Positions 755 through 40,700 of a stretch of 64,000 nucleotides of DNA are shown piece after piece; positions within the stretch are counted from its first letter, which is position 1, and each line of letters starts with the position of its first letter. Origin of the DNA: Paramecium tetraurelia (lineage: Eukaryota); the NCBI GenBank assembly GCA_000165425.1, contig CT868026.1:1-64000 (forward strand). Direction: 5' to 3'. Position numbers and translations under genes: made by a program. The notes below the pieces were generated by a model. It did not search any database. It saw nothing but the letters and a program-made list of their open reading frames with translations, and had not been told where the DNA came from.

Positions 755-3700
755 TCATAATGTCCACATTTCTGTTATTTCTTTCTAAAAGACATTTTGA
801 TTTTGATTTTCCACTAATAAATTATTTAGTTAAAAATTTTTATTTGCATTAATAGAGCTTTACTCGTCATAGCTATAGATAACTATATTAGATCAATTGA
901 TAGTACATATAGATTATTGCTAACTATTCCACTATTATCAAAATGAAAATCAATAATTTTGCCTTTATAAATAAATACTATATTTTGAAAATAATGATTT
1001 TAATGTTTATTGGATATTGATTATTCAATCATATTGACTTGTGATTATACTATCTTACTTCTTTATTCTTGATTTAAAGATGTATTTTTCTATTTCATCT
1101 AATATTTCTATTTCAACAACTTTAAATAAAACTGTTGAAAATAGTTTTTTCAGCGAGTTTTATTACAAAATTGCTAATTCTTAAAGAGTACTCTCCATAG
1201 TTTATTATAAAATCTAAATCATCAAATTATTATAGTTTTGGTGATTCAAGTAATTTTAGAACTCTGTCATAAACGTATTTGAAATTGTGATACCATCATT
1301 CTTAATCAATTATTTATTTTTCAACTCATTGATTATATTTTAAGTCAATAAATGTTAATCAACCTAATTTATTTAGTTCATCTAATTTATTTTCTCCTCA
1401 ATTTACTTAGATTAATGATTGAAATTGTCAATAGACTACATTTAAATAAAATTATTACTTAATTTAATTAATTTAATGCATGTGAATTTCTATTAAATTA
1501 GTTTCTTTAGTTCTAAAAGTACTTTTATTAGTCGATTAATTATATACCTTATTGTTTATACTTTACTCTTGCTCTTTCATATGGATTCCATACTAATACT
1601 TAAAAATGATTGCCATTGGTTCTATATTTTTGCAGATTTCTTTAAACAATTCACATATCTTCATGAATTACGGTCTTATTACTTTCTAATAAAAATTATT
1701 CATAGATTATTTATTCGGTATTTTTAATTCATCACATTCATGTTAAATATCCTCATCATTTATATCGAATGTTGAAATTAGATTGTTTTAAATCACTTTA
1801 GTTTTTATAATTTGATCAATTTCTTTTTGATTTGATTATTTTTCAAAATAAATATCTAATAAAAGAATATTTTTCTAAAGTTCAAAATCTTCGTTGTAAC
1901 AAATTTAATAATTCCCTTTAAATTGTTTAATTTCATTGTTAAGTCTTTATTCATATTATTTATATTCTTCAATTCTGCTTTAGAGCCCATGATATTTTTT
2001 ATTACCCTATATTGAACAAATTTCTTTAGCCTCTTATTTTAATTCATTTTCTGACTTCTTAGTTTTTTTTTTGGTTATTTATAATTTTAGATATTTTTTT
2101 GCCTCTTCACAAAAACGATTTTGAAATCCACCAACAGTTCCTTTAGATTCTTAAAAACATCTATTGATAAAATCAAATAACTCCTTAGATGTATCTTTAG
2201 AAATGACTCCATTTTATACTTAATCGTTTAAAACTTCTGTTGCCAAATTTAATAGTTGATTAACATTACCAGTTTTAAAAGCGGCTTCTTATATTTATTA
2301 CAAAGTTTGATATTGATTTTTTATATCTGCTTTATCAAGATCACTTAACCAAAAACCAGCCTTTTTTAATCCATCAACTGTGACGCGAGGAATTTATTTC
2401 AAAAATTCAGTAATTCCAATTTTTTATAATGATTAAAATCCTTTACATCCTATTTCAAGAGCCTCCTTAATGCCAGAAGGTCCTGCTAAAACTAATGCAG
2501 ATGCAATATTAATCATTTTGTTTTATCCCCAGGCTCCCCAATCAATATCTAATCCTTTCCAGGCTGCTGTGACAGAATAGACCATATCTGATATTCCTCC
2601 AGTTATAAAAGTTTTTCCAATCGGTAAAGCAGCACCACAAGTCAATGCAGTTACTGCACATCCAAAAAGAAATTGACCTAATCCGATTGCAAACATGCCT
2701 AAATATTACCACCATTTTTTTTTTTTCTTCTCTTTTTATATCTTGGTAACTTTTCCAATCATAGGCAAGGGTCCATCATTGATTATTTTTTATTTATCTA
2801 CAAATGATTTATATTCATCACCATTTTTCTTTTTTTTTTTATTAATAAAAGGAGACTATATCTACTATAATATTTTCTTGGTCTGGATTGAATTATTTTT
2901 GGCAAAATTGCGTCAAGCTGCNNNNNNNNNNNNNNNNNNNNNNNNNNNNNNNNNNNNNNNNNNNNNNNNNNNNNNNNNNNNNNNNNNNNNNNNNNNNNNN
3001 NNNNNNNNNNNNNNNNNNNNNNNNNNNNNNNNNNNNNNNNNNNNNNNNNNNNNNNNNNNNNNNNNNNNNNNAAGTTCTCTTTTTATATCTTGGTAACTTT
3101 TCCATCATAGGCAAGGGTCCATCATTGATTATTTCTTATTTATCTACAAATGATTTATCTTCATCACCATTTTTCTTTTTTTTTTTATTAATAAAAGGGA
3201 CTATATCTACTATAATATTTTCTTGGTTCTGGATTGAATTTATTTAAAAGTCTTTAAGATATTATCAATATTTTTCATAAATCCTTTATAGACTATAATA
3301 TGGTTTTTGACCTTTTCATCGTTACTATCTAATTTCTTGTTATTCTTTTAATTGTTTATATCTGTGTTTTCATTTTCTCTACCATAATTTCCGTGATTTT
3401 CATTTTCATTATTATGATTCTCAATATTTGAGTTTTCATGATTTTATTTTTATTATCTTTGCTTTTTAAACCTCTGTTTCTCTTATTTTATTTAAGAATC
3501 ATGCTCCATTTACTATGAAAATCCTTCTTCTTATGTAAGGTATTATGGATTTAATTGCTTTGGATTGATATCAAATTCTAATTTTGGTAACAAATTAGAT
3601 TATTCTTTAGGATTATTTGAAAATTAATCTATTTAAAATCGATTTAACTTTAACGCAGTTGAAAATCCTTTTTCATCATCTATTTTCTGTTGAAATAACT

Positions 3701-6390
3701 ACTTTGCTTTCTTTAATGAATCTATCCCATCCTAAAACTTATTGCCTTATATTTAATATAACCCTTTATAATATTATGCAGCAGGATCATTTTCTGAAAT
3801 ACTTACAGCCTTCTTAAATCTTTCTAAGCATTTTTTTTACAATCCATCCAAAATCAAATACTTTGGATTTTAGGCATCATTTGAATTCAAAATTTTTTCA
3901 ATATCATTTTCATTTAATCCAGTTTCTTGATTTTCCTCCAAATACAGCCCCCACCTCTCTTCCAATTCTTAAAAAGCGCTGCGTTATTCTTTGAAATTGA
4001 CCATGGCTTTAGCAATTTTGCAGAACTTTTCAAAGCATCTATCTTCATTTTCCAATTTTTTCATTTCTTTTTCAATTTCATCTGAATAAAATTATTCATT
4101 CACATTTCTTAATATGACAAGGATATCTAAACTTGTTGGATTGTTGTTATTTACCTTCAAACTCTCGAAAGCTATGATATCTTGTAAGGCATCTGTTTGT
4201 AAATTTCCCAAATAAAAATTTTCCTGTTTATTCACAATAAGTTAAGCAGTTCCTTTTCTTCCTTACCTTCCTGTTCTTCCAAAACCTTATTGTTAAATTC
4301 TTATATTCCTAGGTAAAAAGGACATAATCACATGGAGTCCTCCATTATCTTCCAATTCTTAGTTTGTTATAAGATCTGTTCCTCTTCCAGCCAAATTTGT
4401 TGCAATGATAAGAGTACCAGGCTTAACCTCATGATCTATTTTCTAACTATCGTCAAAGTATGCAATAGAATTATAATTTTTTTATTTGAGATACATTTAA
4501 ATTGTATTGACATCTTAAATCGTCCGATTAATAATGAGAACTGCTCTCTTGTTGTTAATCTATTATTAAACAGCCTAAAATATAGCATTTTTCCACTCTT
4601 CTTCATTAGAAGCTGCATATCCTGTCTCTTCTTTTAACAGTCTCTTTTTAAAAGGGGGTATGAAAACAAAATCAACATTGTACTCTTTAGCTAATAAATT
4701 CTATGTAACTTATGAACCTAAAGTACCAGTTAATCCTAAAATTTTATTTTTGTATCTTTTAAAAAAGGTAATATTCGACAAATAGTTTGTGTTAATTGTC
4801 AATGAAGTCATCGGAAGATTATGCTTTAATTATACAAATTGATGTAACCCTTTTTCCCAATGCATATTATCTCCATGTATCACTCCTGTGTTCTAATAAT
4901 CAATTATTCGAAGCTTATCATTTTCAATTTGATAATGGCAATCCTTATGGAGTTGATATTTTGCATGAATGGCATTTTCAATCCATGTTTTCTTCATAAA
5001 ATCAATATATTTCAATCTATATTTAGGGATAAATTAGTATAATGCTTCTTTTAGTTACAGGTTTAAAGTGGATTCAATATATTCATTCAAGTCAACACTA
5101 TAATAATTATCTTTATCGACAATCATAACTTTATTTTCTGTTGATAAATTTGATTCTGTCTTACAAATTTCATCCCAGATTAATCTAAGAACCTTTGTTA
5201 AATCAAGCATTCCAGGTATAGGGGCACTTAATAGTGTCTTATGACTATTTCCATCTATAAGCATAGAATCAACTTCATCAACAATAATATATTCTTATTT
5301 TCTATTACCCATGGTATCTCTTTCTGAGTATTCATGTCTTAAAATATCTGCTTCAAAACTATGGGGATCTCCATAAATCACAGAGCAATTATAACAGGGT
5401 AGCATTCCAATAGTAGATTTCTATGTTTCATTTATATTATGGGATACTGAAACTGAAAAGGATTTATAAAATGATTCCAATTATTAAGCATCTCTAGTTG
5501 CCAAAACAGGAGAGCTAGTTACAATATCAACATTAGCATTTTTCTTTTTATTCAATAAAATTGCAAGCATGGCTACTATTAGAGATTTCCCTTCTCCAGT
5601 ATATATTTAAGCTAACCGTCCTTTATCATGATTATGATTATATAATTCTATTACTGATAATAATTAGGCCGGCCTTGGATAATATTAAAAGTGTTCCTTT
5701 ACTTTTATGCATATAAATAATAAGTCTTCATACAATAAATATGGTGAAGGCGTAAAATTTATATAGTTTACATTTAATTGCTATTAGTTTTCAAGCTATG
5801 AATATACTTATTATAGTAAGTTTAATAATTCTTAATTAGATCTCTTATTGAGAAAGTCAAATTCTTTAAACAGGTCATTTATTATTTATTAATTATTGGT
5901 TTGTGCTTACTCTTTATTGGGTTGAGCAGGCATAGGATTTTGAACTACTGGATTTGAACTTGATTCAAAAATAATACAGGCTAAATGCTTAAATTAATCA
6001 GCAGTTTGAAATTCATGTTGTGTTACTTTCTCAACTAATCCTCGATCCATTTTGTTTTTTTCAACAAATTAGAGGATATCTGTTATTTCTTGCTCACTTT
6101 TAATTTATTTAGATAAATTCTATTTTAAATTCTATAACTCTTAAGGAGTCCAATCTTACTCAAATTCCATATTTTGAGAGCTTTCCTTAATCAAGCTCTC
6201 TTACAATTTATTCCAATTTTCCGAGTTATCAAAAAGAATTCGAATGACTTATTCTGAGCTCTTAAATTTTTGGATCTATTGATCTAAAATTTTATAGCTA
6301 GTCTTAGGTGAAATTCATTTGCATGATAATCTCTTAAAAATTCTGATTTTCTTCAGCTGACCACTTTGTATTTTCGATCAACTTCTGCAT
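755..6390 (-). CDS. Giant SecA-like (SF2 DEAD-motor) ATPase with a long C-terminal extension; spans an assembly gap
   Basis: Ciliate-code translation from ATG 6390 (MQKLIENTKW...) gives the SecA motifs in order: QIYTGEGKS (~5583-5609), VDIVTSSPVLATRDA, IIVDEVDSMLID (~5270), DYQNTG..HWEKGLHQF, ILGLTGT, IATNLAGRGTD (~4390), GGLHVI..RIQQQGFGRTGRQGRKGT (~4250-4340). The frame continues past the gap. Two small introns near 1440-1550 keep it open, and the likely end is ...EITEMWTL-TGA at 755. The 3' exon structure is approximate. Confidence 0.85.
2922..3071. other. Scaffold gap (150 N) flanked by a ~165-bp near-identical duplication (2728-2894 vs 3075-3242)
   Basis: The N run is seen directly. The same sequence (ttctctttttatatcttggtaactttt...ggattgaatt) occurs on both sides, with errors concentrated toward the gap. 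Confidence 0.95.
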
Positions 6391-6914: not shown

Positions 6915-9900
6915 TCATTATTTTATTTGGATATGATAAACAAATTCCACTCTTGTAAATACACTTTTTTAAAGTTAGAAATTTGCCTTTTATAGTTCAT
7001 TTCCTTTATTTTACGATTGCTGTTCTTCATTAGATTTAAGTTTGCTTATTCTTTTTTCGAGTATTTTTCTAATTTTACTTTTGATTAAATTGATAAAATC
7101 ATAAAGATCAAACAACATATATGAAATTAGAACACTTACTAAAAGAAACATTTAAATCCAGCTCACTATGATTATAAAATTATAATCAAAGTATTGTTAC
7201 AAAATATCCCAATTTACGATTGTGGATGCTGTAAATAATGTTAGGGATGCTTCCATGATTATATTTTTCATTTAAATTTCAAATTCTTCAGTAGTCTTTG
7301 TGTTAATAACGTAAATTAAGTAGAATCCATTGATTAAGGTCATTAGCAAAGTTTAAAGTATCTGCTCACGCTAGTAAAATACAAGGACTGATACAATTAA
7401 AATCTTTTTAATTAAAAGAAAAAAGGCTTATTTTTGAAACCAATATTGGTCTAAATTTTACCTTTTCCAAGTAAGTACTCCGTTCATTTAATATAAGATT
7501 AGTGCAAAAACGAAAATTAGTATTATAAAAGTAATAGCCAGGCGAACATAAGTTCTATAAAAAGAAAAATCATGGTAGGAGGATATTTCAAGCATTGCCA
7601 TAAAGATCAGATCCCAACTACAAGCAAGCAAAGTACTATGGATAAAACTTCTGTCAATTTTTTTAATCTATTTATTGAGTTTTCTTTAGTATCTTTGTAA
7701 AAAACGAACAACTTTTGGGAAACCTTATAAAGGTGAACTCATCTCCACGATTGAAATAACTCTTTCCAATAATAAACTACTCATATAACAAAATAATAAG
7801 GTGAGGAATAAAAAAATTTCACTTCTAAATCCTTCAGTTATATCTGCATTGACTTAATAAAATTAAAATTTTTCATATGATTCTAGATATGGAAATTTAA
7901 GTAATGAAGCCTTCTGGCTAAAATTTACGATGCTATCTAGCAATGATTACATTGATATCAATTCGGATGATTGAAAGTAAATAATCAAAGTTTAAGGGTA
8001 TAAAACATTGATAAATTTAAGATATGATTGCTGCTAAAGGGCATCCAACATTCCCCATAGTGAAAGTGTATTTCCTAGTATGATTAAAATAATTGATAAA
8101 GCATATATAGATAGAAAAGATACTTTACTAACCAATTATATTGCCTGAGCTATTTAAACTTATTCATCTGTTAAATAATTAGGTTAATTTAATTGCAAAT
8201 AATCCATCATATTTACTAAAGGGGCGAGATTATCATTATATAGTTATTCTGTTAGTTTGACTGTTAATATTGGATACTTGAGTTGATTAGTAAAGATCTC
8301 AACTTATATAATGTATTCTACCTGCAATATAACTTAATACTAAGCAGATTGAACCTCCATAATAGTAATATTGTAATAAGTTTCATTCAAATCAATGATT
8401 GAAAGTTCTATGGAATTTTAAAAATTGATATCAGAAAGTAATTAAACTTCCTAAGAGAATTTGATCCTAGCATATTAATATTAATTTTTCTGCTGGATAA
8501 ATTCACAAATAAGCTGTGGATACTTAACAAATGTGCAATCAGTGCCTTAATTGCAGATCCAATTAATTTCCACTTAACATGTTTTAGAGCACCCATCTCC
8601 ACTATCTAGATTTCCGTCATCACATTCTTCACCATTTTATAAGGTCCCATCTCCACATACATTTGAGCATTAATTTTCAATTAGTTGAAATCCAAAATTA
8701 CAAATGTTGCAAGTGCCATCAATGCATTCAAAGCAATTGAGAGGACATGAAAATTTACATAGATAACATCCATCATATTCTGAGGTGTTATTATCTTCAC
8801 ATTATTCGCTGCCTGCAATGATGGAATCCCCACAAATTGTAGAACAGGCATTATTCATAAAATAAAATCCTGGCAAACATAAATCTAGACAGATTCCAAA
8901 TTCGCAGTTAATACATCCTATTGAGCAAGAATAACGGCAATTGAAACAGCCATCAAATTCGATATCATTACCGTCATCGCAATCTTCAGAGTCTTAAACT
9001 ACAAGATCTCCGCAAGTACCAATGCATTCATTATCAAGTAATTTTAAATTGTTCTTACATGAATAACAAATTGTGTTTACACATTCCTAACAATTTTGAT
9101 CACAAACACATTCTTCAAGACTGTAAGGTGCTATTTAATCTCCACAAATATCTAAACACTTACCTAAAATTAAAATCTATCCAATTTAACATTTATAACA
9201 AACATCATCAATACAAATCTAACATTAAGCTTAACATAAATTTTTTTTCTCAACCTAAAAACAATAATTATCTTCCAAATAATAGTCATTCTCACATACT
9301 TAGCAGATGCCTGAAATACATTATAAACAATGATCACTGCATTAAATTTAACAACTATAGCAATATGATGATAGATAGGAATACTAACACTATTCCTATG
9401 AAGTGACAATTTGATAGTTACAAATTGAATCACATTTGCTTGTTAATTAATTTAAAATGAAACCATTTTAACATACAATACAGACTTCTAGTAAAGAAAC
9501 TTAACAATTATCAATTGGAGGATAGCTTTAAGGTTCAGTGTATTCTTCTTGAAAAGTTATAATAGAGGATTTCTAATTGATTTGTTTTTCACAACTAAAT
9601 TCATATTCTAAATAAGTCCAACCATCAAAACAACCAAGGCAGATCATATTTTAACAGACTGAACATCCATCTACACATGAAAACATACAGCCAAAGCAAC
9701 CATCAAATGGAAATAAATTGCCATCATCGCATTCTTCATCCATTTCAACAAGTTTGTCACCACATATTGTTGTTTCTAAATTAATTTATTTTTATACTTA
9801 TAAAAGTTTAAATGTCTCTTACTCCAAAGGACTCATTAGAATATGATTCATCCAAGTTATTTATTATTAAAATTTTGGTATTTTATTCATAATGAGGAAA

Positions 9901-10919
9901 TGTCATATCTATATTAATAAATACATCTTAAGAATTTAAACTACAAATTCCATATAAATAATTAGGAAATGAAGTTAGTGGCGATTCCCATATTAATTCT
10001 CCAGCAGCAAACGTTTAGAAATGATCTGCCCATTCCCAACTGCCAATCCTGAGATACTTTAGTTTTATTTTCATTTAAGTATGAACTGGCAATTTCAATA
10101 AAGTCAATTTCAGGATAGTATCTTTTCCACACACTTCTTTCCCACATATAGTAGGAATCTCTAAAATTAAATATCAATCTCATACCCAAACAGTTTTATT
10201 TATTTTGGTTTCCATCTTAAATGCTCCATCCATCTGTAACAAAGTGGTCAAAATTAACTTCTGTATAGTAGGAATGAGCTAGCCTCCAAGTGTTACAATC
10301 AGCCTCCGTGTCCTTATTAGTACAAGTAAGGCATTCTGGAGGACACTCGAAAATAAATAGTTCGAAATTCTTAAAGCCCCAAGATTCCTTTTTTTATGAA
10401 AAATCATACATCCCAAGCGTCCCCATTCAATGTACTAGTTAAGTAGATGAAGGTTGACAATCCTGTATGATCTAACTCCATTGATATTTAATGAATTGAA
10501 TCTTTTCTAGTTTCTTATCCACATAAAAAGTTTGTGCCAGCTAAACCTGAATATCTAACTTTGTACACTAACACTTGATCTACATACACTTAGAAGTATT
10601 CATCGACATCCCATGAATCGATTCTAGGCTAGTTATGACAGTTTACATATAAAGAGTCATAGAAATTTTCATTCTATAATGAGGAGGTAATTGTAATAAT
10701 TTTGTAGCAGCTTGCGTATTTGCAAATCTTAGATGGCCTCCTATAATTTCTTATGAGCCACATTTAGTTATTACGGTAGCAGGATCAATGTTTAGAAAGC
10801 TCCAATCTAAACTCATAATATGTATTACTATCAGTGTCATCCAGAATAGTATCGCTAAAGGCTGAATAAACGAGGGTTTAAGAGCTAGTTATACGTAAGA
10901 GGGTTAAAATCAAGAGCAT
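6915..10919 (-). CDS. Cysteine-rich surface protein with Myxococcus-type Cys-rich (DUF4215-like) repeats and a C-terminal multipass membrane domain
   Basis: Signal-peptide-like start MLLILTLLRITSSQ. Repeated CGD..EECDDGNLFPFDGCFGC, CGDLVV..CDDGNDIEFDGCFNC and CEECDDGNLDSGDGCSKTC units (8550-9780), furin-like CxxC repeats, and several hydrophobic helices at 7050-8130 (SLWGMLDALQQQSYLKFIN..YP). TGA at 6915. Confidence 0.85.
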
Positions 10920-12120: not shown

Positions 12121-14460
12121 TCATTTTAAGATAAGTTCCAAAATTTCACACTCTTCTAAGTTAGGTGTTGTCTAACCAAATAAATGAGTGGTTGTATCTT
12201 AAATTTAGTATTAATCAATTTAATAAGCAGTTCCTAAAGCAGAAGAGCCACTCGTGAAATCTGATCCAATATAAATATCATATCCTTAACCAAATGATGG
12301 CCCATAGGACTAGTGTCTATATATCGCATGGGCTTTATTGGCTTCTTTTATAGGATAAAATTAATTATGAGTCTATGAAAACAGAAAAGATGACAATGTA
12401 TCATCTGGCACATAACCATTTTATTTTTCTATCCATTGACAAGGAGAGTAAGCACCAAAGATGTTTCCACTCTTTGATTTATAAATAATGAGTAAATTCT
12501 TCTTTCCATTAATTTTGCTCCAACATTTTGTATGATTCAATCCATCTCTAGTTCCCAAATAAGTAAGAAAAGAGCATTATATTTTCATTTTAGATTTTTC
12601 TTCAATCAATTTACTAACTTCAACATAAAATTGTGGAGTTATAAGCTTAGGTTAATCTCTTAATAATTGCTAGAATTATTATAACGAATTAATCTCTTAG
12701 TTCTTTTAATTTAATTATTCAGAGGATTCCTTTTGAGCTTTGGTAATTTGTTATTTTAATTCCTCTATTTGTTTATTTAACGATTAATTAGACTCATTCA
12801 ATTGAGACTTATCCTTTTGAAGTTGTGTTATTTATTAATTTAATTAATCTATCTTAGAGTTAAGAGTTTCAATCTTTTGATTAGATTCATCCAATTAAGC
12901 CTAGACGGTCTATTGTGATTACTTATATTAATTTAATTCTTGCTCCAAAGTTGAGATTTACTTTTAATGTTCTTCAACCATGATTAATGACTTCATTTTC
13001 TTAGAATATAACTCAAACGACTAATATTATTTTTATTATTAATCTTCTATAAATAAGTAGGATAATTATCCTTTTTCTTGTAAATCATCAATTTCCTTTT
13101 GTAAATTTTTATAAAAATTACAAGAATCTTCAAAGATTGAACAATATTGTTCTAATTGTGAGAATTTCTTAATAAATGCTTTAGAATCTGAATTTCTATC
13201 GTATTCATTCTCTGAAATGATACCAGTAATACTAAATTCATCACATTAATCTTAATTATGAATTCTAATTAAATTATGTTTAGTCAATAAGTCATATTTG
13301 ACGAGATTCTCCAAATTTTACTTTAAATTTTAATAAAATATTAAATCCACTTAATCTTATTCTTATTGCTCCAATTTTACTTTTTGATTCTTATCTTTCT
13401 AACTCAAAAACTCTACTATTTTAAGAACTTCTTATTCATCCAACTCATATATGTCTTCAACAACATTTGAATTATCTTTTTTAGTACTTTAATTCATATT
13501 TCTTTATCGTTCCAATTATTAGATTATATCTGATAATGTCTAATTATAGATGTCCTTTAATTATTGAATAGATTTAATGGCAGAATTAAATTTAGAGTAT
13601 CTACCATTATTGTATTTAGAAATCATCAATTTTTATTATCCTTTTAATTCCTTCCATTTTGTATTTGCATCTTCAACTGTGATGTATTCTCTTTTTGGAA
13701 ATTATTAAATGCATTTCTCGCAAGCCAAGCCACATTATTCTGATTCATTTTAGCTTAAGTTAATCATCATAATCTTTTTGCCATGTTGACTACATAAGTA
13801 TTTCAATGTTGGTGTTTCCTAATAATATTATAAGTAGATTTATACATGCTTCTCAAATCTTCTCTTTGGAATGAGTTGTCCAATTTAGAATTGAGACTTG
13901 ATTTAATAAATTGATTCAAATATCTGAGAAAATTATTATGTATTTGACATCATACTAAGATCACTTTGTATTTTATCTAACATCTAAGTAAAGCCTTCTA
14001 AATTGAATTCTTATTTGATAGGTTCACAATTAGAATTTCCATTATAAATCTATGATAATGTTTCAATGTCCTTATCTAAACTCAATTCATCAAAACTTGT
14101 TTTCTTTTATTCTATTTCTTGTTCGTTTGAGCTGATACTTTCATTAATTTTATTTTGCAATTTATCGAATACTTGAGTAAAATGATCATTGACCTTTGAG
14201 ACAGAACATTGAAGATTCTAAACACTATTTAAGGTTTCTTGTTTTTTTTTCACTTCTTCATCTTTGTATTTGTTTTTCAACTCTTTAATCATCTCAATAG
14301 CTTCACTCAACAACACAATATTATTTCCTTAAATCCGTTCAATTAAACACTTAACACACAAATATTTCTATTTCTGTTCTCTTGCTGCTTTTAAATCAAC
14401 CGCAAGTATTTCTAATTGATGAGTTTGACAATTCTTATTTCCATTCTCGATAATTGACAT
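12121..14460 (-). CDS. TLDc-domain protein with two Cys/His knuckles and long coiled coils
   Basis: Starts MSIIENGNKNCQTH..YLCVKC; second module YLCSQH..GLACEKC (~13710-13794). C-terminal TLDc: YLGTRDGLN..KSKSGNIFGAYSPCQW..SSFLFS..YGPSFGQGYDIYI..ECEILEL-TGA. Probable 27-nt intron 13819-13845. Confidence 0.88.
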
Positions 14461-15194
14461 TTCTAGAACAATTAATTAAATATTCTTAATTCTCTTAATA
14501 TCAATAATTAAGAAAAAAATATAGAATTAAGTCAAAACTACTAATTGCTATTGTCCTTTATCTTTTCTATGCAAATAACGATTGAAGGGATAGAATGTTC
14601 ATCTATCCTAATTCACACGTAATTTTGTTATATAATCTTCATAGAATAATATTAAAATACAAATTCCAGTAATTCAAATTGAATCAGTTTACAATCAATT
14701 ATTATTGTAATTATCAATTTAATGTATCTTAGCATTCTCCTTTTCTACTTTATATATTAATAAATAAAATAAAGATTTATTTATATTATTTATAAATACA
14801 CAATGCTAAATTATGTTAAAATAATGAGAACAAATTATTTAATTTAATGATTTATTATATTTAAAATATTTTGATTCATTTTTATCTTTTTATTGTTTAT
14901 AAATTATTACTTAATTCGAAAATAAATGCCTTAGAAGAGTGCCATCTGCATATCTATTATTAAAAATATTGATGAAAATAGAAAAGTTGAGTGCATATGA
15001 TACTGCATTATTTTTATTAAAACTGAAACTGTTTTCAAGACTTTAAATCAAATTGTATCAATAGAGCCTTAGATTTATTTATGGAATCTTAGATTTTGAT
15101 TACTGAAGTATGATTCCTTATTATATCGAAATTGTAAGGGCTTCTTGATTTAATGGCTCATTATAAATAATAAATCATCATTATTTTATTTATC

Positions 15195-27665: not shown

Positions 27666-28686
27666 ATGGGTCCCTATCTTACAACACCAAATACTTAGAA
27701 AGAAACGTATTAAGGAGAAAATGAGAAATTCATCTTCGCTGCTACCCATATGCAAGGTAAGATTATATAATATTTTGATAAGGTTGGAGAAACAACATGG
27801 AGGATGCTCATATTTCATAATTGGATATTGAGCCAGGAGTGTCTTTATTTGCTGTGTTTGATGGTCATGGAGGGAAAGAAGTAGCTATCTATGCTGAAAA
27901 ACATTTTCAAGAAGAATTATTGAAAAATCCAAATTACAAGTAGAAAAACTACAAGCAAGCTTTAATTGAGACCTTCTTGAAAATTGATGAATTATTATTT
28001 CAACCACAAGGACAAGAAGAATTGATAAAGATTAAAGGAAGTGGTGATGGTAACATTTTAAATTCATATGTTATAGAATTATAAGCTGGAGCAACTGCCA
28101 ATGTTGCTTTGATTGTAAATAAGACTATTTATCTGGCTAATGCTGGAGATTCAAGAGCCATGCTATGTAGAGACAATAATCCTTTGGATTTGAGCAAAGA
28201 TCATAAGCCAGATGATGAAAAAGAAAAGTAAAGGATTGAAACAGCTGGAGGTTTTGTGTAAAATGGAAGAACAAATGGTATATTTTAGTTTAAGAAAAGG
28301 AAGTTTATCTTTGAGTAGAGCAATTGGAGATTTAGAATACAAAAAGGACTAGAAATTTAGATAGGATGAATAAGTAATTATAGCAGTACCAGAAGTTAGA
28401 GTGGAAGAAATTCAAGCAAATGACAAGTAATCTGTATATTTAAGATCGAGATTCTTATTAATGGGATGTGATGGAGTCTTTGAAATTTGGAGTCATAAAT
28501 AAATAATCGATTATGTTAATTCTCAAATGAGGTAAGTAGTGACGAAAGAAGATATTAGGATTGCAGCAGAAGGATTACTTGACTCTGTAATCGCAAAGGA
28601 TACATCAAGTATTAATAATAATTATTATCAAAGATGGTACTGGATGCGATAATATGACATGCATCATAGTATATTTTAAGTAATGA
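27666..28686 (+). CDS. Protein phosphatase 2C (PPM family)
   Basis: MGPYLTTP..MQG|WRNNMEDAH, FAVFDGHGG, AGATA, ANAGDSR, LSKDHKP, LSRAIGD, LMGCDGVFE, GTGCDNMTCIIV; several tiny introns. Confidence 0.96.
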
Positions 28687-28740
28687 GGATTTATAAGATG
28701 TTATTAAATATCCTTTTATTTTATTCTATATTGTTGATAC

Positions 28741-29730
28741 TCAAGCTTATTAAGCTGGTCTTGGACCTCCTCTTGTTTTTTATCCTGCAGGTTTTTCATT
28801 GGCCCCGTTCGATTGATTGTTGTTTCCACTTGTGTTGTTATTTCTTCTATCATCTCTTTTAGCATCTCTTTCTTCTCTATTATCTCTTTAATTTCTGTTG
28901 TCTCTATTATCTCTGTTATCTCTATTATCTCTGTTATCTCTGTTGTCTCTGTAATCTCTTCTGTCTCTATTATCTCTATTATCTCTGTTATCTCTTCTGT
29001 CTCTATTATCTCTATTATCTCTATTATCTCTGTTATCTCTATTATCTCTTCTGTCTCTATTATCTCTTCTATCTCTATTGTCTCTATTGTCTCTGTTATC
29101 TCTATTATCTCTATGATCTCTATTATCTCTATTATCTCTATTGTCTCTATTATCTCTATGATCTCTATTATCTCTATTATCCCTATTATCTCTTCTTTCT
29201 CCTTTATTTCTTTAGCTGTCATTTCTTGGTTTTCTGCTTCCACTTCTTTATCTGTCATTTCTTTCTCTGGTTGGTTGGACTTGATCAGCAGGTAAGGGTT
29301 CCTAATATAAGAATTATTTATATACAAGGAATCCAGGCTCTTTTCTGTCTTATTCAGTTGGTGTCTTGGTTAGTTTGATTTGGAGGGAAGCCAAATTTTT
29401 AGTGACACTGACTTTGACTAATCCTTCCTCTAATGGTTCGTATTCTTCATTAATCTGAACAGCCTAGATTTTGTTTATTTAATATAATCCAGCAATTCTT
29501 TTTCTAACAACATCAGCAATGATGACGGCTTTGGAGATGGCATTTTCAATAGCTGTGATGAAGATAGTATCTTCAACGGGAGGTTGATCTTCTCTACGAG
29601 GACCTTACAAAAGCCACAAAGCTTTTCTGACTTGGCTTGACAATTAAGCTTTTGTAGCTACTCTAATGACATTAGGATTAGGCTTTTAATCCTCAACAAC
29701 AATCCTGTGATACTTTCTTTTTGTGGCCAT
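28741..29730 (-). CDS. Alba-domain (Rpp25/Mdp2-like) nucleic-acid-binding protein with an Arg-Asp-Asn repeat tail
   Basis: MATKRKYHR..NVIRVATK..IFITAIENAISKAVIIADVVRKRIAGLYQIN..EEYEPLEEGLVKVSVTKNLASLQIKLTK..KEPGF|QEP, then (RDN)n, ending ..TRGGPRPAQQA-TGA. Confidence 0.9.
28866..29192 (-). repeat. Coding 9-nt tandem repeat (AGAGATAAT; variants AGAGACAAT, AGAGATCAT, AGAGATTAC) encoding RDN/RDH/RDY
   Basis: Array of tctctatta units seen directly on the + strand. Confidence 0.95.
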
Positions 29731-29791
29731 ATTAAATATTAATACAAATCTTTTTTTTGAGTAGCAAAAAAACTGTGTAATATATATATTA

Positions 29792-31882
29792 TCATTTTTC
29801 TATCTTCATTCCTTTATACCACATACAATTAATGACTCTGCCATCCTTGTAAATGTATTTTCCTTTACCATGACGCTCCCCATTCAACCATTCTCCAAAA
29901 AATAATTTACCATTGTGGTATTCCACCCTTCCTTCTCCAACTTGTTTGTCTAACTCAAAACTAAACTTACATGATTTTCACTTTACTTTCCAATAAATAT
30001 GTTCCCATCTGGACTTATCAGAGTTCCTCTTCCATGCTTCATCCCCTTCTTAAATGACCCTTCATATCGAGATCCATCAATATTGACTTACAAACCCTCT
30101 CCATCTATTTAGTTGTTCACAAAAGTGCCTTAATAATAAGATCCATCCGGTTGTATCAACTTTCCAAAGCCTTGCTTTTTCCCCTCCACAAATTGTCCTT
30201 CATAATAGAGCCCATCCGGCCATTTTTATTTGCCATATCCATTTTATTTATCATTCTTCCAATTTCCTTCATAAATAACTCCGTCGCTGTTAGTAAATAC
30301 ACCATGTCCATTAGCCTTATCATGTTTCCATTCCCCTTCATACACATCACCTTCGCAACTAATATATCTTCCAAATCCATTACATTCATCATCCTTCCAC
30401 TCTCCATCATAAATTGATCCTAAATAATTTTATCATTCATTAATTTACCATCTTTCCATATCAATTTCCCCTATCCTTCCCTCTTCTACTGAAACAGCTC
30501 TCCTATGTATATACTCTCTAATAATTCACTTAATATTTACTGTCTGACAATGTTAACTAATACACCTTCTTGCCGTGAGATCTATCGCTACCATTCATAG
30601 ATGTATCAGTGATATGGCTATTGTAAATTGACCCATTCCTGTGTTCGATTTCAGTATTCTTATGCAAAAAATTGTCAATTATTGCCTTGTCTTCCTATAA
30701 GTCTAACCATTTCACCCTTTTCCCTTCAGCCCACTCTCCATACCTATATTCACCAGAAGGAGCCTAGTACAATCCAATTCCATGTTGTTTTCCAAGTTTC
30801 CACTCCCCAATATATTTCCTACCATCATTCCAAATAAATGTTCCTAATCCTTATTTTTTATCATCCATATAACTAATGTAACTCTAATTTAATACCCTCC
30901 TTCATATGATCTGCCATCCGCCCAAATAGTCTTGCCCATTCCCCACATCTTATTATAGACCCATTCTCCTACATAGCTTCTCCCATCAGTCCAATGATGT
31001 GAGCCATATCCATGTATGTCATCCATTTCAAATTCCCCTTCATAATAGGATCCATCTTGGAAAACTAACTTGCCTTTCCCATTCTTCTTCCCTTCATAGT
31101 ATTCACCCTCATAGGAAGCACTGTCGATCCAAGATTCCTTCCCGTAAATATGTTTTACACTATTTTTCCAATATCCAACATAGGTGGCACCTTATTAATA
31201 AAAGTATTCTCCAAATCCGAAAATATCCCCTTCATGCCAATAACCACAGTAAATATCTCCGTTCTAATAAGTTTTCTTACCAAACCCATGTTGTTTATTA
31301 TTCTTCCACTGGCCTTCAAAAACAGATCCTAATTTTGCTTTAATTTTGTTACATACCATCTTAAAATTTTCCAATACCCAAGCCATGCTTCATGTCATCA
31401 AGCATTTGGCCATCATATTCGATTTCTTCTGAAATGATGCGTTAAAAGCTAAATTTTGTTTGTATTTGTTATGTGATCTTTTCGGATGTGTATATTTTAT
31501 CCAATGATTGATTTAGTAAATGCTCTAAATCTTCTTGTGGGATGGTTTTTGAACTCTAAACAATTTGATTATTCTCAATAACGCAATCTATGTTCTCGCC
31601 ATCAATCTTGATTACTTTTCCAAGCATTTTATGATCTTCCCAATATCCTTCAAAAATAATACCTTTTTTAGATTGGCTAAATTACCATTTGGATATATTT
31701 GAATTCCTTTGCCATGTCTTTAATTGTTTTTCCATTCGCCCTGATATATGGAATCTAATGATTCAGGCATAAAATACACCATCTCCTAAGATGACTTTCT
31801 AGTAAAGAGAATATTCGGATTCCTGTTTGAAGGATGCGGCTGATTGTTAGGAGGTACAATTTTGAAATTCTTGTCTAGACAT
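29792..31882 (-). CDS. MORN-repeat protein
   Basis: Many YxGxWxxxxxxGxG units (YQGEWKNNQRHGKGIQIYPN, YEGEYYEGKKNGKGKLVFQDGSYYEGEF, YVGEWVYNKMWGMGKTIWADGRSYEG); several tiny introns. Confidence 0.9.
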
Positions 31883-37765: not shown

Positions 37766-40700
37766 ATGGATTAGCAATTATCTGGGGTGCTCATAAAGAG
37801 GGATAAATGGAAGGCTGAGAGTAAGGTGACGAAGTGTGAACATTGCGACAGACAATTCTACTATTTGTTTAGAACCAAACACCATTGTAGGAAATGTGGA
37901 TTGGTATTTTGTTCGGAGTAACATTATCTATATATTATGGAATAGTTGTAGCAGCAACTTCATCGATGGCATTCATTTCGCATAAAACACAGAGAAGAAA
38001 GTAAGATTGTGTGGAGTTTGTTATGATTAAGTATTAAAATTGTTGAAAGCATAAGGATACAAATTAGAAAATGCATTTGAAACCAGAGTGGTCAGTGTGT
38101 CTATTGACAAGGGGTAATTGAATTTATCGAGAAGAGAATCGATACATAAATTGGATGATCAATCCTACTCTATCTCCAGATCACAAACCACTCAAGTGAC
38201 TGAAGAATAGGAGGATAACATGAATAATGATTAGGAATTCAATCCTGAGATCATTTAGGTGAGTATACAAAGTTATTTTCCCCCTGAAGAGTAGAACAAA
38301 AATAAGGAATCTGAATTATTGAAATCCTAATTGTCACTCCTGAAAGAAAAGTGTTATTCTTAAATGGAAAATATTTGTGATCATAGTTTAAAGATCTTCA
38401 TTCAACCTCAACGCAATCACGACAACCACTTCGAAGGACTCAAATCAACGACATTTGAATTTGTGAAGCGAGCAGTTGAGGACATTTAGTTTTCATCTCT
38501 CAACTCCGACCCATTGGACATCACTTGCTATGTGAAAACCAAGTTGCTCCCATACAAGGATTACTCATTGACTTGTTACTTCCCAGGAATTGTTATCAGA
38601 AAGAACATTGCGTTGAAGAGAATGTAAACTGAACTCTACAAACCTCGTATTTTGATTATCCATGGGAATCTGGATTTCATAGAAGAGACTTAACAATTTG
38701 ATGATTTCATATTGAAAGAAAAAAGAGTGCTCCAAGATTACATCGAGAAAATTAAAGAGAACTTCAAGCCTACCATTATCATCGTTGAGAAATCAGTCAG
38801 TAAAGTGGCATTGGATATTTGTTGCAAATTCAACATCACAGTTGTTCAGAATGTGAAGATCCATCAATTAAGAAAGATAGCCAAATGCACAGGTTCTAAA
38901 TTTGTGCGTCTAGACAAATTGGATGGCTATATACAGAAGGAGACATAGGTGACTGGGAATTGTGAGAAGATTTTCTTTCGCAATTTCCCAAGGCCAACTC
39001 TTGACAAATAGGATGTAAGTGGAAAGGATAATACACTGATGTTCATTGAAACAAAGGACGGCAAGAATGGAGTGACAATTATGTTATCAGGACCACAGGA
39101 AGATTTACTATAAAAATGGAAATAGTGCATTGTTGGATGCATGAGATTGGGCAAACACTTCGATGTGGAAAGATACATAATAGTGTGTGAGTAGAAATTA
39201 AGATAAAATAAACAATTCAATTTTTGTGTGGGTGATTTTACAAAGTTTTTACATGAAAAGGTGAATCTCAAAGAAGTCATCAAACCTGATCTAGCTTATG
39301 TAAAAATTAATTATGCTAGAGCAGACATTCACAACTTTAATGATATCAAGGACATGAATGCCCTATTGGCTTATTAAAAAGAGTTTCCACCTCAGAAGGA
39401 TAAGGTGGTTGACTTCTTTGCTGATATGTGCAACATGCCAACTGAGAAACCCAAGGCTTATTATCAATCAAATGATGATATGTCCATAGGTGCATTCATC
39501 ATTCTCAAAGTGGCTAATCTGCAATTCAGATGCGAATATTGTAAATTGCCCCGGAATAGTCATGTTTCCATCTATTACAATGCTGGCAGATATGTGAAAT
39601 TCAGTGTGGATGGGTCGATGAATCAAATCAAATAGATAGTGTTGCAGAAGGAATAATCGCAAGTTCAGCAGAGTGATGAGAATAGAACATTTCTATTGAA
39701 AGACTTGCCAAGCATCATCAAACAGAATCATTCCAATGAAAAGATATAGATTGAAACTTACTTCGAATGCAATCTCTGCATGCAACAACTAACAGATAGG
39801 GTCATCTTGAGTTAGAAATACTTGGAGTACTCCTTCTTAAGATTCTTGTAGCAATTGTTCCTCACTCAAAACAATAGTACAAATCAATTTCAGAATGCAA
39901 CATCATGCAATCACACTCAAGTGTAAAGAGTCTACTCCTATTACGGGTATCAGATGAAAGTGATGGTGGGGGAATTCGATGTCTATCAAACTACCTTGTT
40001 GAATTTCTCTGATAGTTCATTAAGTGATCATCTAAAAATTTGGGAGTAGAACTACATCAGACAACACAGAGATGAATTGATGAATAAGTTGAATACCTTT
40101 GGAATTACATTGATCAATCTCATACCCAAATCATTAGCCAAAGGCGAGATTGATTTACTCATCAAATCAATTAAACAACTCAAGGAGGAATGCGAGAAGA
40201 TACTGGCTGAAACACAATACACATCAATCTTTTAAGTTCTCAAGTAGTCCCAAGACTTTGGACTCCAGTACAAGAACATCATGCAAAGTATCCAAGAACA
40301 CAAGAAGAAGAAGGAATTGAATCCAGATTTTAAAAATATCATACAGAATGCTGCTGTGAATTTGAAGAATCAAGATTCCATCTTAACCAATAACACCAAT
40401 ACCATCAAGACTACTTATGAATTAGAGAAGGTTGATTCTGGAAACAATTTAAATGAAGTCAAGCAGTATCATTCGAATTAAGAATTAGAAGAACACCATC
40501 TCCAATCAGGATAAAAACATTCATTATAAGAAATTGAAGAAACAAATCATAGAGAAAGTTCAGGAAAGAATGATTTGAGTGATCTTATCATACCACCCAA
40601 TTTTTCATCTGACGCTGACATCCAATAGTCACCTCTATTTGTTAGAAATCACAGAAGAAATGGATCTGAGATTCAAAACAACTACGTCATTAATTTAGTT

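What the first reader, a model, noticed from the sequence alone, without database searches (positions are those of the whole stretch)
755..6390. Giant nuclear-encoded SecA-like ATPase in a plastid-less ciliate
Seen: the SecA-specific motifs are present and in order (QIYTGEGKS, VDIVTSSPVLATRDA, DEVDSMLID, GLHQF, GLTGT, IATNLAGRGTD, GGLHVI, GRTGRQG) with catalytic residues intact. The gene uses TAA/TAG as Gln and has tiny introns, so it is a host gene and not bacterial contamination. Known: SecA drives protein export through SecYEG in bacteria and plastids; ciliates have no plastid and no known SecYEG partner. Inference: the motor has been repurposed. The SecA wing/scaffold C-terminus is replaced by roughly 1000 aa containing a Q/E/N-rich linker, a hydrophobic hairpin and long helical regions, an architecture more like an NTPase-plus-effector (immune/toxin-type) protein than a translocase.
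Basis: partly seen in the sequence, partly recalled or inferred. Interest (0 to 1): 0.8.

Follow-up and report, generated by a model that had tools for sequence, protein, structure and literature searches.

The report
Paramecium SecA-like membrane ATPase gene
This is a real Paramecium gene for a large ATPase related to the bacterial secretion motor SecA; it belongs to a little-studied family shared by many animals, ciliates and intracellular bacteria, and it is not part of the normal secretion machinery.

Summary
All eight SecA motifs lie in order on the minus strand. The frame is open only if TAA/TAG encode Gln. The gene runs from ATG 6390 to stop 1025-1027, not to 755. It is a Paramecium tetraurelia macronuclear gene of about 1,654 codons with two tiny introns (26 and 23 nt).

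The N gap, its duplicated flanks and four one-base errors are assembly artefacts. They split the gene into two public models.

It is not a Sec-translocase SecA. It has NBD1, PPXD and NBD2 but no scaffold/wing domain. SecA/SecA2 models score 111-166 bits against cut-offs of 725-1493. It sits in a separate clade (SH-aLRT 100).

That clade mixes ciliates, rotifers, insects, fish and a fungus with Rickettsiales, Legionellales, Chlamydiae, Wolbachia and Bacteroidota. Its conserved core is motor, TPR-like helical domain and a membrane module, followed by a variable tail. Some relatives' tails end in nuclease, OTU or toxin domains.

Likely function: a membrane-anchored, ATP-driven motor that handles polypeptide chains. 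The mechanism is inferred only. The scan met this family before in a rotifer (e1-2593140).

The parts
1025..6390 (-). Whole gene: ATG 6390-6388 to stop TGA 1027-1025. About 4,965 nt of coding sequence (1,654 codons plus stop) once the assembly artefact and two introns are removed.
   Evidence: tblastn of paralogues; sequence; independent contigs; public models P0001 and P0265. The length is my arithmetic from those calls.
5916..6390 (-). N-terminal region of about 155 residues, with no recognised domain and no signal-peptide-like start. The window carries one extra A at 6290, which breaks the frame.
   Evidence: base 6290 is absent in contigs of X15 (depth 130) and X19. Aligns with the N-terminus of P0006. 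Pfam found nothing significant.
4176..5693 (-). SecA-type motor: NBD1 (Walker A 5583-5609, DEVD 5253-5279), PPXD insert (Pfam match 4833-4997) and NBD2 (4374-4406 and 4260-4280 hold the arginine motifs).
   Evidence: (703 bits to the family motor HMM), and 80 (hhalign probability 100, E 1.4e-58, to SecA columns 72-583 of 886).
3465..4175 (-). Post-motor helical domain conserved across the family (LEERWG, NPKY, then about two TPR-like repeats). It stands where SecA has its scaffold/wing.
   Evidence: conserved columns; family profile hits TPR proteins at profile positions 121-197. In the window alone, TPR_11 reaches only E 0.13.
3195..3464 (-). Q/N/E-rich low-complexity spacer, poorly conserved (31-38% identity to paralogues).
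2728..3074 (.). Assembly artefact: an N run (2922-3071) flanked by near-duplicate copies of the same coding stretch. In independent contigs, 2701 is followed by 26 nt and then 3075. The lower bound is approximate.
   Evidence: (X15 record 1 and X17 record 8).
2418..2735 (-). Conserved membrane module: a K-rich flank, TM-like helix 1 (2643-2714), a short Gly/Ala/Pro loop, amphipathic helix 2 (2556-2627) and helix 3 (2424-2540).
   Evidence: 128 bits; pLDDT 87-94.
1548..2378 (-). Paramecium-specific helical tail: a helix bundle (2061-2378, pLDDT above 90), a 72-residue helix (1836-2051) and further helices.
   Evidence: No Pfam, fold or sequence relatives outside the Paramecium paralogues.
1522..1547 (-). 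Intron 1, 26 nt, GT..AG.
   Evidence: sequence; public model reads ...SINNK|YFQNQ...; contigs show no indel here.
1436..1458 (-). Intron 2, 23 nt, GTA..TAG.
   Evidence: The junction ...NQLNQ|SIDNF... is contiguous in paralogue P0002.
1028..1435 (-). Last exon, 136 codons, ending ...SQYD. Conserved to the C-terminus of the paralogues.

Best explanation
The gene is an intact, chromosomally resident Paramecium tetraurelia gene. It is one of at least three full-length paralogues.

It encodes a member of a distinct clade of SecA-like ATPases with this layout:
- a cytosolic N-terminus;
- a SecA-type motor (NBD1 with the PPXD polypeptide-clamp insert, then NBD2);
- a conserved helical, TPR-like domain in place of SecA's scaffold/wing;
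- a disordered spacer;
- a conserved membrane module (one TM-like helix plus two amphipathic helices bearing conserved Gln/Glu/Asp/Lys);
- a lineage-specific helical tail.

Shown here: identity, gene structure, family membership, the conserved core, and that it is not a Sec-translocase subunit.

Inferred: helix 1 anchors the protein in a membrane with the motor on the ATP-containing cytosolic side. The motor uses the SecA-type clamp to grip and move or unfold a polypeptide chain at that membrane. The chain could be a client brought to the TPR-like domain or the protein's own C-terminal tail. No SecYEG-type partner would be needed.

In bacterial relatives the same core carries toxin or effector domains at the far C-terminus, so there it probably serves delivery of that tail. 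In ciliates the core has been kept since before the Paramecium/Tetrahymena split, with a non-enzymatic helical tail.

My odds: identity and family placement about 0.95; 'not a Sec component' about 0.9; 'membrane-anchored polypeptide-handling motor' about 0.4.
For: Gene and host origin:
- Searches give the gene structure.
- Codon usage equals the neighbours (GC 0.27; TAA/TAG are 76% of Gln codons).
- The neighbours are ordinary ciliate genes.

Motor:
- Pfam SecA_DEAD, SecA_PP_bind and P-loop_SecA all pass their cut-offs.
- The best solved relatives are SecA chains (E 1e-32, residues 165-652 of P0001).
- hhalign to canonical SecA has probability 100 over NBD1-PPXD-NBD2.
- The catalytic motifs are invariant in 20 of 20 aligned members.

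Separate clade:
- 71 of 87 rows form a clade with SH-aLRT 100 and stem 0.86.
- The same holds with 7 canonical SecAs added, three of them from genomes that also carry the giants (71 of 90 rows, support 100, stem 0.88).
- Endosymbiont genomes hold a canonical SecA plus 2-6 family copies.

Ciliate residency:
- 14 Paramecium rows form a clade (100). With Tetrahymena malaccensis added, support is 97-98.
- Holding all 16 ciliate rows together gives a higher likelihood than the free tree (+17.2 lnL, p-AU 0.79).

Conserved core:
- The membrane-module HMM is found in 67 of 120 relatives and in 23 of 27 bacterial family ORFs, always 249-925 residues after the motor.
- Its profile finds 1,280 representative clusters at E <= 1e-3 and 867 at E <= 1e-10.
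- Of the 144 best new ones, 94 also have the motor. Of the other 50, 49 start too close to their N-terminus to hold one.

Membrane anchor:
- The best 19-residue Kyte-Doolittle window of helix 1 has median 2.19 and is >= 1.6 in 216 of 218 modules.
- K+R is richer before helix 1 than after it in 186 of 218 modules, and poorer in 6.
- AF2 gives confident helices (pLDDT 87-94).

The post-motor domain is TPR-like.

Delivery-type layout in relatives:
- C-terminal OTU, Ntox46, Endonuclea_NS_2, DnaJ or LysM domains occur in 5 of 21 scanned proteins.
- AHH (twice) or DUF5675 occur in 3 of 23.
Against: - No experiment and no structure of the motor stand behind the mechanism. The fold job for the motor was never accepted.
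- The parts of SecA that contact SecY and push the chain (scaffold helix, two-helix finger, wing) are not detectable. A SecA-like threading cycle is therefore an analogy.
- Helices 2 and 3 are not TM-like (>= 1.6 in 6 of 218 and 41 of 218). The topology (single pass or hairpin) is open, and the module could in principle be a buried helical core rather than a membrane segment.
- The TPR signal in the window protein itself is below threshold (E 0.13).
- Fish members, and some insect and Tetrahymena members, lack a detectable module.
- Only 2 RNA reads lay on the gene in the one true RNA-seq run, of which about a third was read.
- The Paramecium tail has no recognisable cargo or enzyme domain.
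- Bacterial neighbours showed no conserved partner.
Confidence: 0.55

Rival explanations
1. Immune or toxin-type NTPase plus effector. The SecA-like ATPase acts as a sensor or switch. The hydrophobic helices and tail are the effector, for instance a pore-former released or activated in conflict with bacteria or endosymbionts.
For: - Relatives carry polymorphic-toxin-type C-terminal domains: AHH, Ntox46, NS_2 endonuclease, OTU, and a weak Scabin-like hit.
- The family is concentrated in obligate intracellular bacteria, next to Ank/TPR/LRR genes, and on endosymbiont plasmids.
- The tail evolves faster than the motor: 35-48% against 68-79% identity to deeper paralogues.
- There are lineage-specific expansions.
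Against: - The hydrophobic module is the most conserved part after the motor. It is always coupled to the motor, unlike a swappable effector.
- No effector domain was found in the Paramecium tail.
- No PADLOC family matched.
- Only helix 1 is strongly hydrophobic.
- Retention of the PPXD clamp argues for a polypeptide substrate rather than a pure switch.
Confidence: 0.2
2. A nucleic-acid helicase or translocase. The motor is an SF2 DEAD-like helicase working on RNA or DNA, and the SecA resemblance is only ancestry.
For: Pfam DEAD (34 bits) and, in relatives, Helicase_C hits. NCBI names the bacterial members 'helicase-related protein' or 'DEAD/DEAH box helicase'. Several relatives carry nuclease tails.
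Against: SecA_DEAD scores three times higher than DEAD, and the SecA-specific PPXD insert passes its cut-off. All top solved relatives are SecA; the first helicase follows at E 4e-9 against 1e-32. The membrane module is hard to reconcile with a helicase role.
Confidence: 0.1
3. A decaying relic of an old gene transfer. This copy is a silent or dying pseudogene without function.
For: Only 2 RNA-seq reads lay on it. The closest orthologue model, in P. octaurelia (P0002), reads out of frame over the bundle region and lacks the N-terminus. The window shows frame breaks.
Against: Every frame break in the window is either an assembly error corrected by independent contigs or an annotated GT..AG intron. 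There are about 1,654 codons without TGA, and all catalytic motifs are intact. Motor identity is 87% to the orthologue and 69% to deeper paralogues. The ciliate clade is old.
Confidence: 0.07
4. A genuine SecA, either from bacterial or endosymbiont contamination or for an organelle's Sec pathway.
For: UniRef automatically names the paralogues 'Protein translocase subunit SecA'.
Against: - 119 in-frame TAA/TAG codons, tiny introns and host codon usage.
- SecA/SecA2 equivalog models score 111-166 bits against cut-offs of 725-1493.
- It falls in a separate clade from canonical SecA.
- No scaffold/wing domain.
Confidence: 0.01

Closest known systems
Canonical SecA / SecA2 (ATPase of the bacterial and plastid Sec translocase)
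   Same: NBD1 with Walker A/B, the PPXD insert and NBD2 with its arginine motifs. About 25% identity over roughly 490 aligned columns.
   Different: - No scaffold, wing or two-helix-finger region.
- Far below the equivalog cut-offs.
- A separate clade.
- Instead it carries a TPR-like domain, its own membrane module and a roughly 530-residue tail.
- It is encoded by a eukaryotic nucleus.
Unnamed 'SecA-like' family. It appears as the 'SecA-like helicase-related domains' of Amoebophilus effectors (Zhang et al. 2012, PMC3482391, passage read), the SecA domain of the phage WO eukaryotic association module (Bordenstein & Bordenstein 2016, PMC5062602, passages read), Legionella fallonii lfa2470 [SecA DEAD-like] listed among genes of eukaryotic origin (Gomez-Valero et al. 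2014, PMC4256840, passage read), and the 'SecA-like domain protein' genes of a Ca. Megaera polyxenophila plasmid.
   Same: The same motor clade, post-motor domain and membrane module. The window gene is a member.
   Different: The bacterial members are giants of 1,000-5,200 residues with long N-terminal extensions, and sometimes with toxin or effector ends. The Paramecium proteins are about 1,450-1,730 residues with a helical tail. In the passages I read, the papers mention the domain only in passing. None of those passages describes the membrane module or the conserved core.
Secondary SecA_DEAD domain proteins of Planctomycetes, Verrucomicrobia and Proteobacteria (Kamneva et al. 2015, PMC4452313; abstract and section 14 read)
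   Same: SecA_DEAD motor with the SecA_SW domain absent or reduced. They occur in addition to a canonical SecA.
   Different: They are about 620-715 residues and form their own groups outside the 71-row family clade. They are reported next to type I secretion genes. No module hit was listed for them.
Giant Omnitrophota and Actinobacteria proteins with divergent SecA_DEAD domains (West-Roberts et al. 2023, bioRxiv 10.1101/2023.11.21.568195; passages read)
   Same: SecA_DEAD and PP_bind without scaffold/wing, next to transmembrane segments. The authors suggest the motor helps export of the protein itself.
   Different: These are proteins of tens of thousands of residues from free-living predatory bacteria. 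Their relation to the present clade was not tested here.

Membership tests
Canonical SecA/SecA2 | NBD1 (SecA_DEAD) with Walker A and DEVD | tested here: met
   102.6 bits against a cut-off of 24.6; motifs located.
Canonical SecA/SecA2 | Preprotein cross-linking domain (PPXD) inserted in NBD1 | tested here: met
   SecA_PP_bind scores 26.6 bits against 23.5, covering profile positions 57-109 of 110 only. hhalign runs through the insert.
Canonical SecA/SecA2 | NBD2 (P-loop_SecA) with arginine finger motifs | tested here: met
   32.6 bits against 27; IATNLAGRGTD and GRTGRQG present.
Canonical SecA/SecA2 | Helical scaffold, wing and two-helix finger (SecA_SW) | tested here: not met
   No SecA_SW hit at E <= 0.01. 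The profile-profile alignment ends at SecA column 583 of 886. This is a sequence-level test only; a fold comparison could not be run.
Canonical SecA/SecA2 | Scores as a SecA or SecA2 equivalog (NCBIfam) | tested here: not met
   The best model gives 166.5 bits against a cut-off of 862. Eight models give 111-166 bits against cut-offs of 725-1493.
Canonical SecA/SecA2 | Falls inside the canonical SecA clade | tested here: not met
   It lies in a separate 71-row clade (support 100, stem 0.86-0.88) against 4 and then 7 canonical SecAs. No plastid or cyanobacterial SecA was in the trees.
Canonical SecA/SecA2 | SecYEG partner in the same genome | not testable with these tools
   No whole genome is held for the window. 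From general knowledge, eukaryotes have Sec61, the SecY homologue, in the ER.
SecA-like motor plus membrane-module family (unnamed) | Motor in the family clade | tested here: met
   703 bits to the family motor HMM.
SecA-like motor plus membrane-module family (unnamed) | Conserved post-motor helical/TPR-like domain (LEExWG, NPxY) | tested here: met
   LEERWG and NPKY align to the conserved columns. The family profile hits TPR proteins.
SecA-like motor plus membrane-module family (unnamed) | Conserved hydrophobic module 250-900 residues after the motor | tested here: met
   128 bits, E 5e-40. The conserved Gly, Gln, Asp and Lys columns are present.
Secondary SecA_DEAD proteins (Kamneva 2015) | A protein of about 650 residues grouping with the planctomycete/proteobacterial set | tested here: not met
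   It falls in a different clade and has a different length.
Known anti-phage defence NTPases (PADLOC models) | Match to any PADLOC-DB model | tested here: inconclusive
   0 families at E <= 0.001 for 6 proteins. The library covers prokaryotic defence systems only.

The most novel reading that the evidence does not exclude
The motor, TPR-like domain and membrane module together form a self-contained, single-chain protein translocase that needs no SecYEG/Sec61 channel. Helix 1 anchors it, and the SecA-type clamp threads either the protein's own variable tail or a client across the anchoring membrane. Intracellular bacteria would use it to deliver toxin or effector tails. Ciliates, rotifers, insects and fish would have domesticated it independently. 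In ciliates this happened before Paramecium and Tetrahymena diverged, perhaps for work at phagosome or symbiont membranes.
Probability: 0.2. Interest if true: 0.85.

Novelty: new variant of a known kind. Interest (0 to 1): 0.55.

Why it matters
SecA is a textbook bacterial and plastid secretion motor. Databases automatically label hundreds of eukaryotic proteins 'Protein translocase subunit SecA', which is misleading.

These proteins belong to a separate family of at least about 1,300 sequence clusters. The family has its own conserved membrane module and has moved repeatedly between intracellular bacteria and their hosts. No function has been tested.

If the core is an autonomous translocation or extraction device, it would be a new way of moving proteins across membranes and a new class of effector-delivery machinery. 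Paramecium offers feeding RNAi, GFP tagging and natural endosymbionts, so it is a tractable host in which to test this.

A practical point: in the public P. tetraurelia assembly the gene is split into two models by an assembly gap.

Tried and rejected
Structure and complex jobs:
No fold-level test of a scaffold-like helix was made.
- Complex prediction could not be used, so self-association of the module is untested.

Fold searches with the C-terminal model:
- Foldseek against PDB gave 0 matches at E <= 0.001.
- BFVD gave 0 matches at E <= 0.001.

Pfam on 23 module segments at E <= 10 gave no recurrent family. DUF4225 appeared in 4 of 23 at 8.5-15.4 bits against a cut-off of 25.9. PT-TG, suggested at 0.84 by the protein atlas, was never hit. 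The module profile against PDB sequences gave nothing below E 0.2.

The Cardinium 'DEAD box helicase' CAHE_0677 (PMC3486910, passages read) is an ordinary RNA helicase in an operon with a cold-shock gene. It is not this family.

Possible recent transfer from a ciliate symbiont: the Megaira plasmid gene groups with the insect/Tisiphia clade (13 rows, 99) and not with the ciliates.

A 22-nt 'intron' near the start and a 35-nt intron at 1513-1547 were my own early guesses. Both were replaced, by the base error at 6290 and by the annotated 26-nt intron.

RNA evidence:
- No listed holder was on record as RNA.
- Runs X17 and X19 are only guessed to be RNA and show no spliced joints.
- Splicing therefore rests on the public model, the GT..AG ends and homology.

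Literature:
- No paper in the library holds GSPATT00033265001, GSPATT00028096001 or GSPATT00014170001.
- No listed paper holds SecA together with bdelloid terms.
- The search for SecA with Paramecium/Tetrahymena listed nothing relevant among its 20 shown.
- Supplements of bioRxiv preprints, such as the P. tetraurelia subcellular proteome, are closed and may hold a localisation.

Earlier notes of the scan on this genome: none.

Full report
**What is in the window.** The gene lies on the minus strand. Read with TAA/TAG as Gln, ORF 3108-6314 is 1,069 codons long with 74 TAA/TAG and no TGA. A second ORF, 1431-2912, follows an N run. Pfam finds SecA_DEAD (102.6 bits), P-loop_SecA (32.6) and SecA_PP_bind (26.6), each above its cut-off, and no SecA_SW. 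tblastn with three paralogues traces the gene from about 6290 to 1028 through three frames.

**Repairing the gene model.**
- The N run (2922-3071) is flanked by two near-identical copies of the same coding stretch, which differ by single-base indels.
- I laid contigs of independent runs on the stretch. One was a DNA run at depth about 130. Another was a run from a different study.
- In both, position 2701 is followed by 26 nt and then 3075. One base is absent at 6290, 3239 and 3228, and one is added behind 3103.
- With these corrections the frame runs unbroken from ATG 6390 (MQKLIENTKW...) to 1548. That start matches the N-terminus of paralogue P0006.
- The last frame change, near 1545, is not an error, because the contigs agree with the window.
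- The public model of the C-terminal half is P0265 (GSPATT00033265001, Paramecium tetraurelia, on the same 260,901-nt contig as P0001). It splices a 26-nt intron (1522-1547) and a 23-nt intron (1436-1458). Both are GT..AG and both restore the homologous frame.
- By my arithmetic the gene is therefore about 4,965 coding nt (1,654 codons), with its stop at 1025-1027.
- In the public annotation the gap splits the gene into a 1,021-residue model and a 562-residue model.

**Host gene.** Codon usage, GC content and the share of Gln codons written TAA/TAG (76%) match the neighbouring genes. Those neighbours are ordinary ciliate genes: a DUF4215 Cys-rich membrane protein, a TLDc protein, a Fab1/PIKfyve-like kinase and a DUF1765 protein.

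**Not a Sec-translocase SecA.**
- Solved SecA chains are the best sequence relatives, but only over residues 165-652 of P0001 (E 1e-32).
- A profile-profile comparison of 48 family members with four canonical SecAs gives probability 100 (E 1.4e-58). It covers only SecA columns 72-583 of 886, which are NBD1, PPXD and NBD2.
- NCBIfam's SecA and SecA2 models score 111-166 bits against cut-offs of 725-1493.
- In a tree of motor domains (87 rows, 506 columns, LG+G4, quick search), 71 rows form a clade with SH-aLRT 100 and a stem of 0.86. This clade is apart from canonical SecA and from the roughly 650-residue 'secondary SecA_DEAD' proteins described by Kamneva et al. 2015.
- I then added three canonical SecAs taken from the same endosymbiont genomes that carry family members. 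The 71-row clade remained (support 100, stem 0.88).
- Those genomes hold a canonical SecA plus two to six family copies.
- No plastid or cyanobacterial SecA was in my trees.

**Who has the family.**
- The word-indexed search lists 3-4 paralogues in each Paramecium aurelia species at 60-85% identity, many named 'Protein translocase subunit SecA' by UniRef.
- It then lists about 35-42% identity to bdelloid rotifers, Tetrahymena, a Litonotus transcript, beetles, parasitoid wasps, a damselfly, a sandfly, catfish and tetra, a hemichordate, a nematode and Gigaspora. Rickettsia and Tisiphia endosymbionts and many unnamed metagenome proteins are also listed.
- In one-genome-per-species contigs, 570 of 587 pattern matches encoded relatives. 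The best 30 or so are Rickettsiaceae, Midichloriaceae, Legionellales, Coxiellaceae, Chlamydiae, Wolbachia, Cardinium and Bacteroidota, with open frames of 1,000-4,559 residues.
- Plasmids of the ciliate symbionts Ca. Megaera polyxenophila and Ca. Bandiella woodruffii carry members, as do plasmids of a Culicoides Rickettsia and of Legionella geestiana. The Megaera plasmid has two adjacent genes of 15.7 and 4.8 kb.
- Three IMG/VR contigs also carry members.
- A tree with all 39 eukaryote-labelled rows held together is rejected (delta lnL 1,147, p-AU 1.4e-55). I named that group after seeing the tree, and some 'eukaryote' or 'MAG' labels may be contamination.
- By contrast, holding all 16 ciliate rows together gives a better likelihood than the free quick tree (+17.2; p-AU 0.79).
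- The Megaera plasmid gene does not group with the ciliates.
- The ciliate genes therefore look like old residents, not a recent capture.

**The conserved core.**
- After the motor comes a helical domain with family-wide conserved columns (LEExWG, NPxY) and about two TPR-like repeats.
- The family profile of this domain hits consensus TPRs, HOP, PP5, Tom71 and SGTA. In the window protein alone the TPR signal is sub-threshold.
- The 'hydrophobic hairpin' is also not a ciliate novelty.
- An HMM of it finds 67 of 120 relatives and 23 of 27 bacterial family ORFs, always 249-925 residues after the motor.
- A profile of 23 modules finds 1,280 representative clusters in 1.84 billion at E <= 1e-3, and 867 at E <= 1e-10.
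- Of the 144 best new representatives, 94 also carry the motor. In 49 of the other 50 the module starts before residue 620, so they are fragments or split genes. One starts at residue 732.
- AlphaFold2 on the window's 433-residue C-terminal piece (40-row alignment, mean pLDDT 75.3) gives helices 47-70 and 76-99 (pLDDT 87-94) and a third helix at 105-143. It also gives a bundle at 159-264 (pLDDT above 90) and a 72-residue helix.
- Helix 1 is TM-like: the best 19-residue Kyte-Doolittle window has median 2.19 and is >= 1.6 in 216 of 218 modules. Helices 2 and 3 are amphipathic (6 of 218 and 41 of 218), with conserved Glu/Asp and Lys. The 1.6 threshold is recalled, not taken from a call.
- Lys+Arg is richer before helix 1 than after it in 186 of 218 modules and poorer in 6. 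This fits a cytosolic motor side.
- No Pfam family, solved sequence or fold match explains the module or the tail.

**The variable ends.**
- Tails after the module have a median length of 684 residues.
- In two samples, 5 of 21 proteins had a recognised C-terminal domain above cut-off: OTU, Ntox46, Endonuclea_NS_2 (in a rotifer protein), DnaJ (Tribolium) and LysM. In the second sample, 3 of 23 did: AHH twice and DUF5675.
- One protein has an N-terminal RickCE/Ulp1 peptidase.
- Around 12 bacterial genes, 43 neighbouring ORFs included ankyrin proteins (3 loci), TPR proteins (2 loci), LRR and an AbiE pair. There was no Sec or secretion-system gene.
- The Paramecium tail is helical and has relatives only among the Paramecium paralogues.
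- It evolves faster than the motor and the module.

**How it probably works.**
- Shown: an intact SecA-type ATPase with the polypeptide-clamp insert, joined in one chain to a conserved TM-like module, in a family whose far C-terminus is swappable.
- Inferred: helix 1 anchors the protein with the motor in the cytosol. The motor grips and moves or unfolds a polypeptide at that membrane without a SecYEG partner. The chain could be its own tail or a client docked at the TPR-like domain.
- I give this about 0.4.
- The rivals are an immune or toxin-type switch plus effector (0.2), a nucleic-acid helicase (0.1), a dying relic (0.07) and a true SecA (0.01).
- Against my reading: the SecA parts that push the chain into SecY are missing. 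The topology is unresolved. Only 2 reads of the one true RNA-seq run lay on the gene.

**What is known.**
- The domain has been mentioned in passing in three papers. Zhang et al. 2012 note it in Amoebophilus effectors. Gomez-Valero et al. 2014 list it among Legionella genes of eukaryotic origin. Bordenstein & Bordenstein 2016 place it in the phage WO eukaryotic association module. I read passages only.
- West-Roberts et al. 2023 describe divergent SecA_DEAD domains without scaffold/wing in giant Omnitrophota proteins and suggest self-export.
- In the searches named under Tried and rejected I found no paper on the ciliate genes, on the membrane module or on the conserved core.
- An earlier report of this scan (e1-2593140) reached the same family from a rotifer and proposed, as a long shot, a self-made pore of glycine-rich hairpins. 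My data agree on the family and on the coupling of motor and module. They do not test the pore.

Noticed in passing
window 2728-3074 (N run 2922-3071), and 6290, 3239, 3228, 3103: A scaffold gap with duplicated, error-bearing flanks and four single-base errors. Together they split one gene into two public models: P0001 (1,021 aa) and P0265/GSPATT00033265001 (562 aa).
   Followed up: yes
P0002 (P. octaurelia orthologue, 1,469 aa): The closest orthologue model reads out of frame over the bundle region and just before the module, and it lacks the N-terminal ~130 residues. This is either a faulty model or assembly, or a decaying copy in that species.
   Followed up: partly
L081 (plasmid CP113870.1 of Ca. 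Megaera polyxenophila, from a Euplotes woodruffi culture): Two adjacent 'SecA-like domain protein' genes (15,678 and 4,770 nt) fill about a third of a 57-kb plasmid. They lie next to a recombinase and a group II intron. The larger gene has the membrane module; none was detected in the smaller.
   Followed up: partly
L082-L084 (IMG/VR contigs): Contigs classed as viral carry family members. L082 and L083 were checked. In L083 the open frame exceeds 2,599 residues and runs off both ends of the locus.
   Followed up: partly
L013 (contig of a Methanobrevibacter MAG) and L006 (contig of a Saccharibacteria MAG): L013 groups tightly with the damselfly and sandfly proteins. L006 is flanked by ankyrin and TPR genes. 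Both look like mis-binned host or endosymbiont DNA rather than genes of those organisms.
   Followed up: no
G002 and G003 (genomes behind L017 and L002): One Chlamydiae genome and one Legionellaceae genome each hold a canonical SecA plus several SecA_DEAD giants of 900-3,500 residues (7 and 6 matches).
   Followed up: partly
window 37830-42145 (+): A Fab1/PIKfyve-like gene: a Cpn60_TCP1 domain followed by a PIP5K domain, in two adjoining frames.
   Followed up: no
window 28608-29954 (-): An ORF with a long run of E-I-I/E-I-T triplets (EIIEIIEIIETIE...). It has no Pfam match.
   Followed up: no
window 6918-9902 (-) and 12124-14598 (-): Neighbouring genes: a DUF4215 Cys-rich multi-pass membrane protein, and a coiled-coil protein ending in a TLDc domain.
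   Followed up: no
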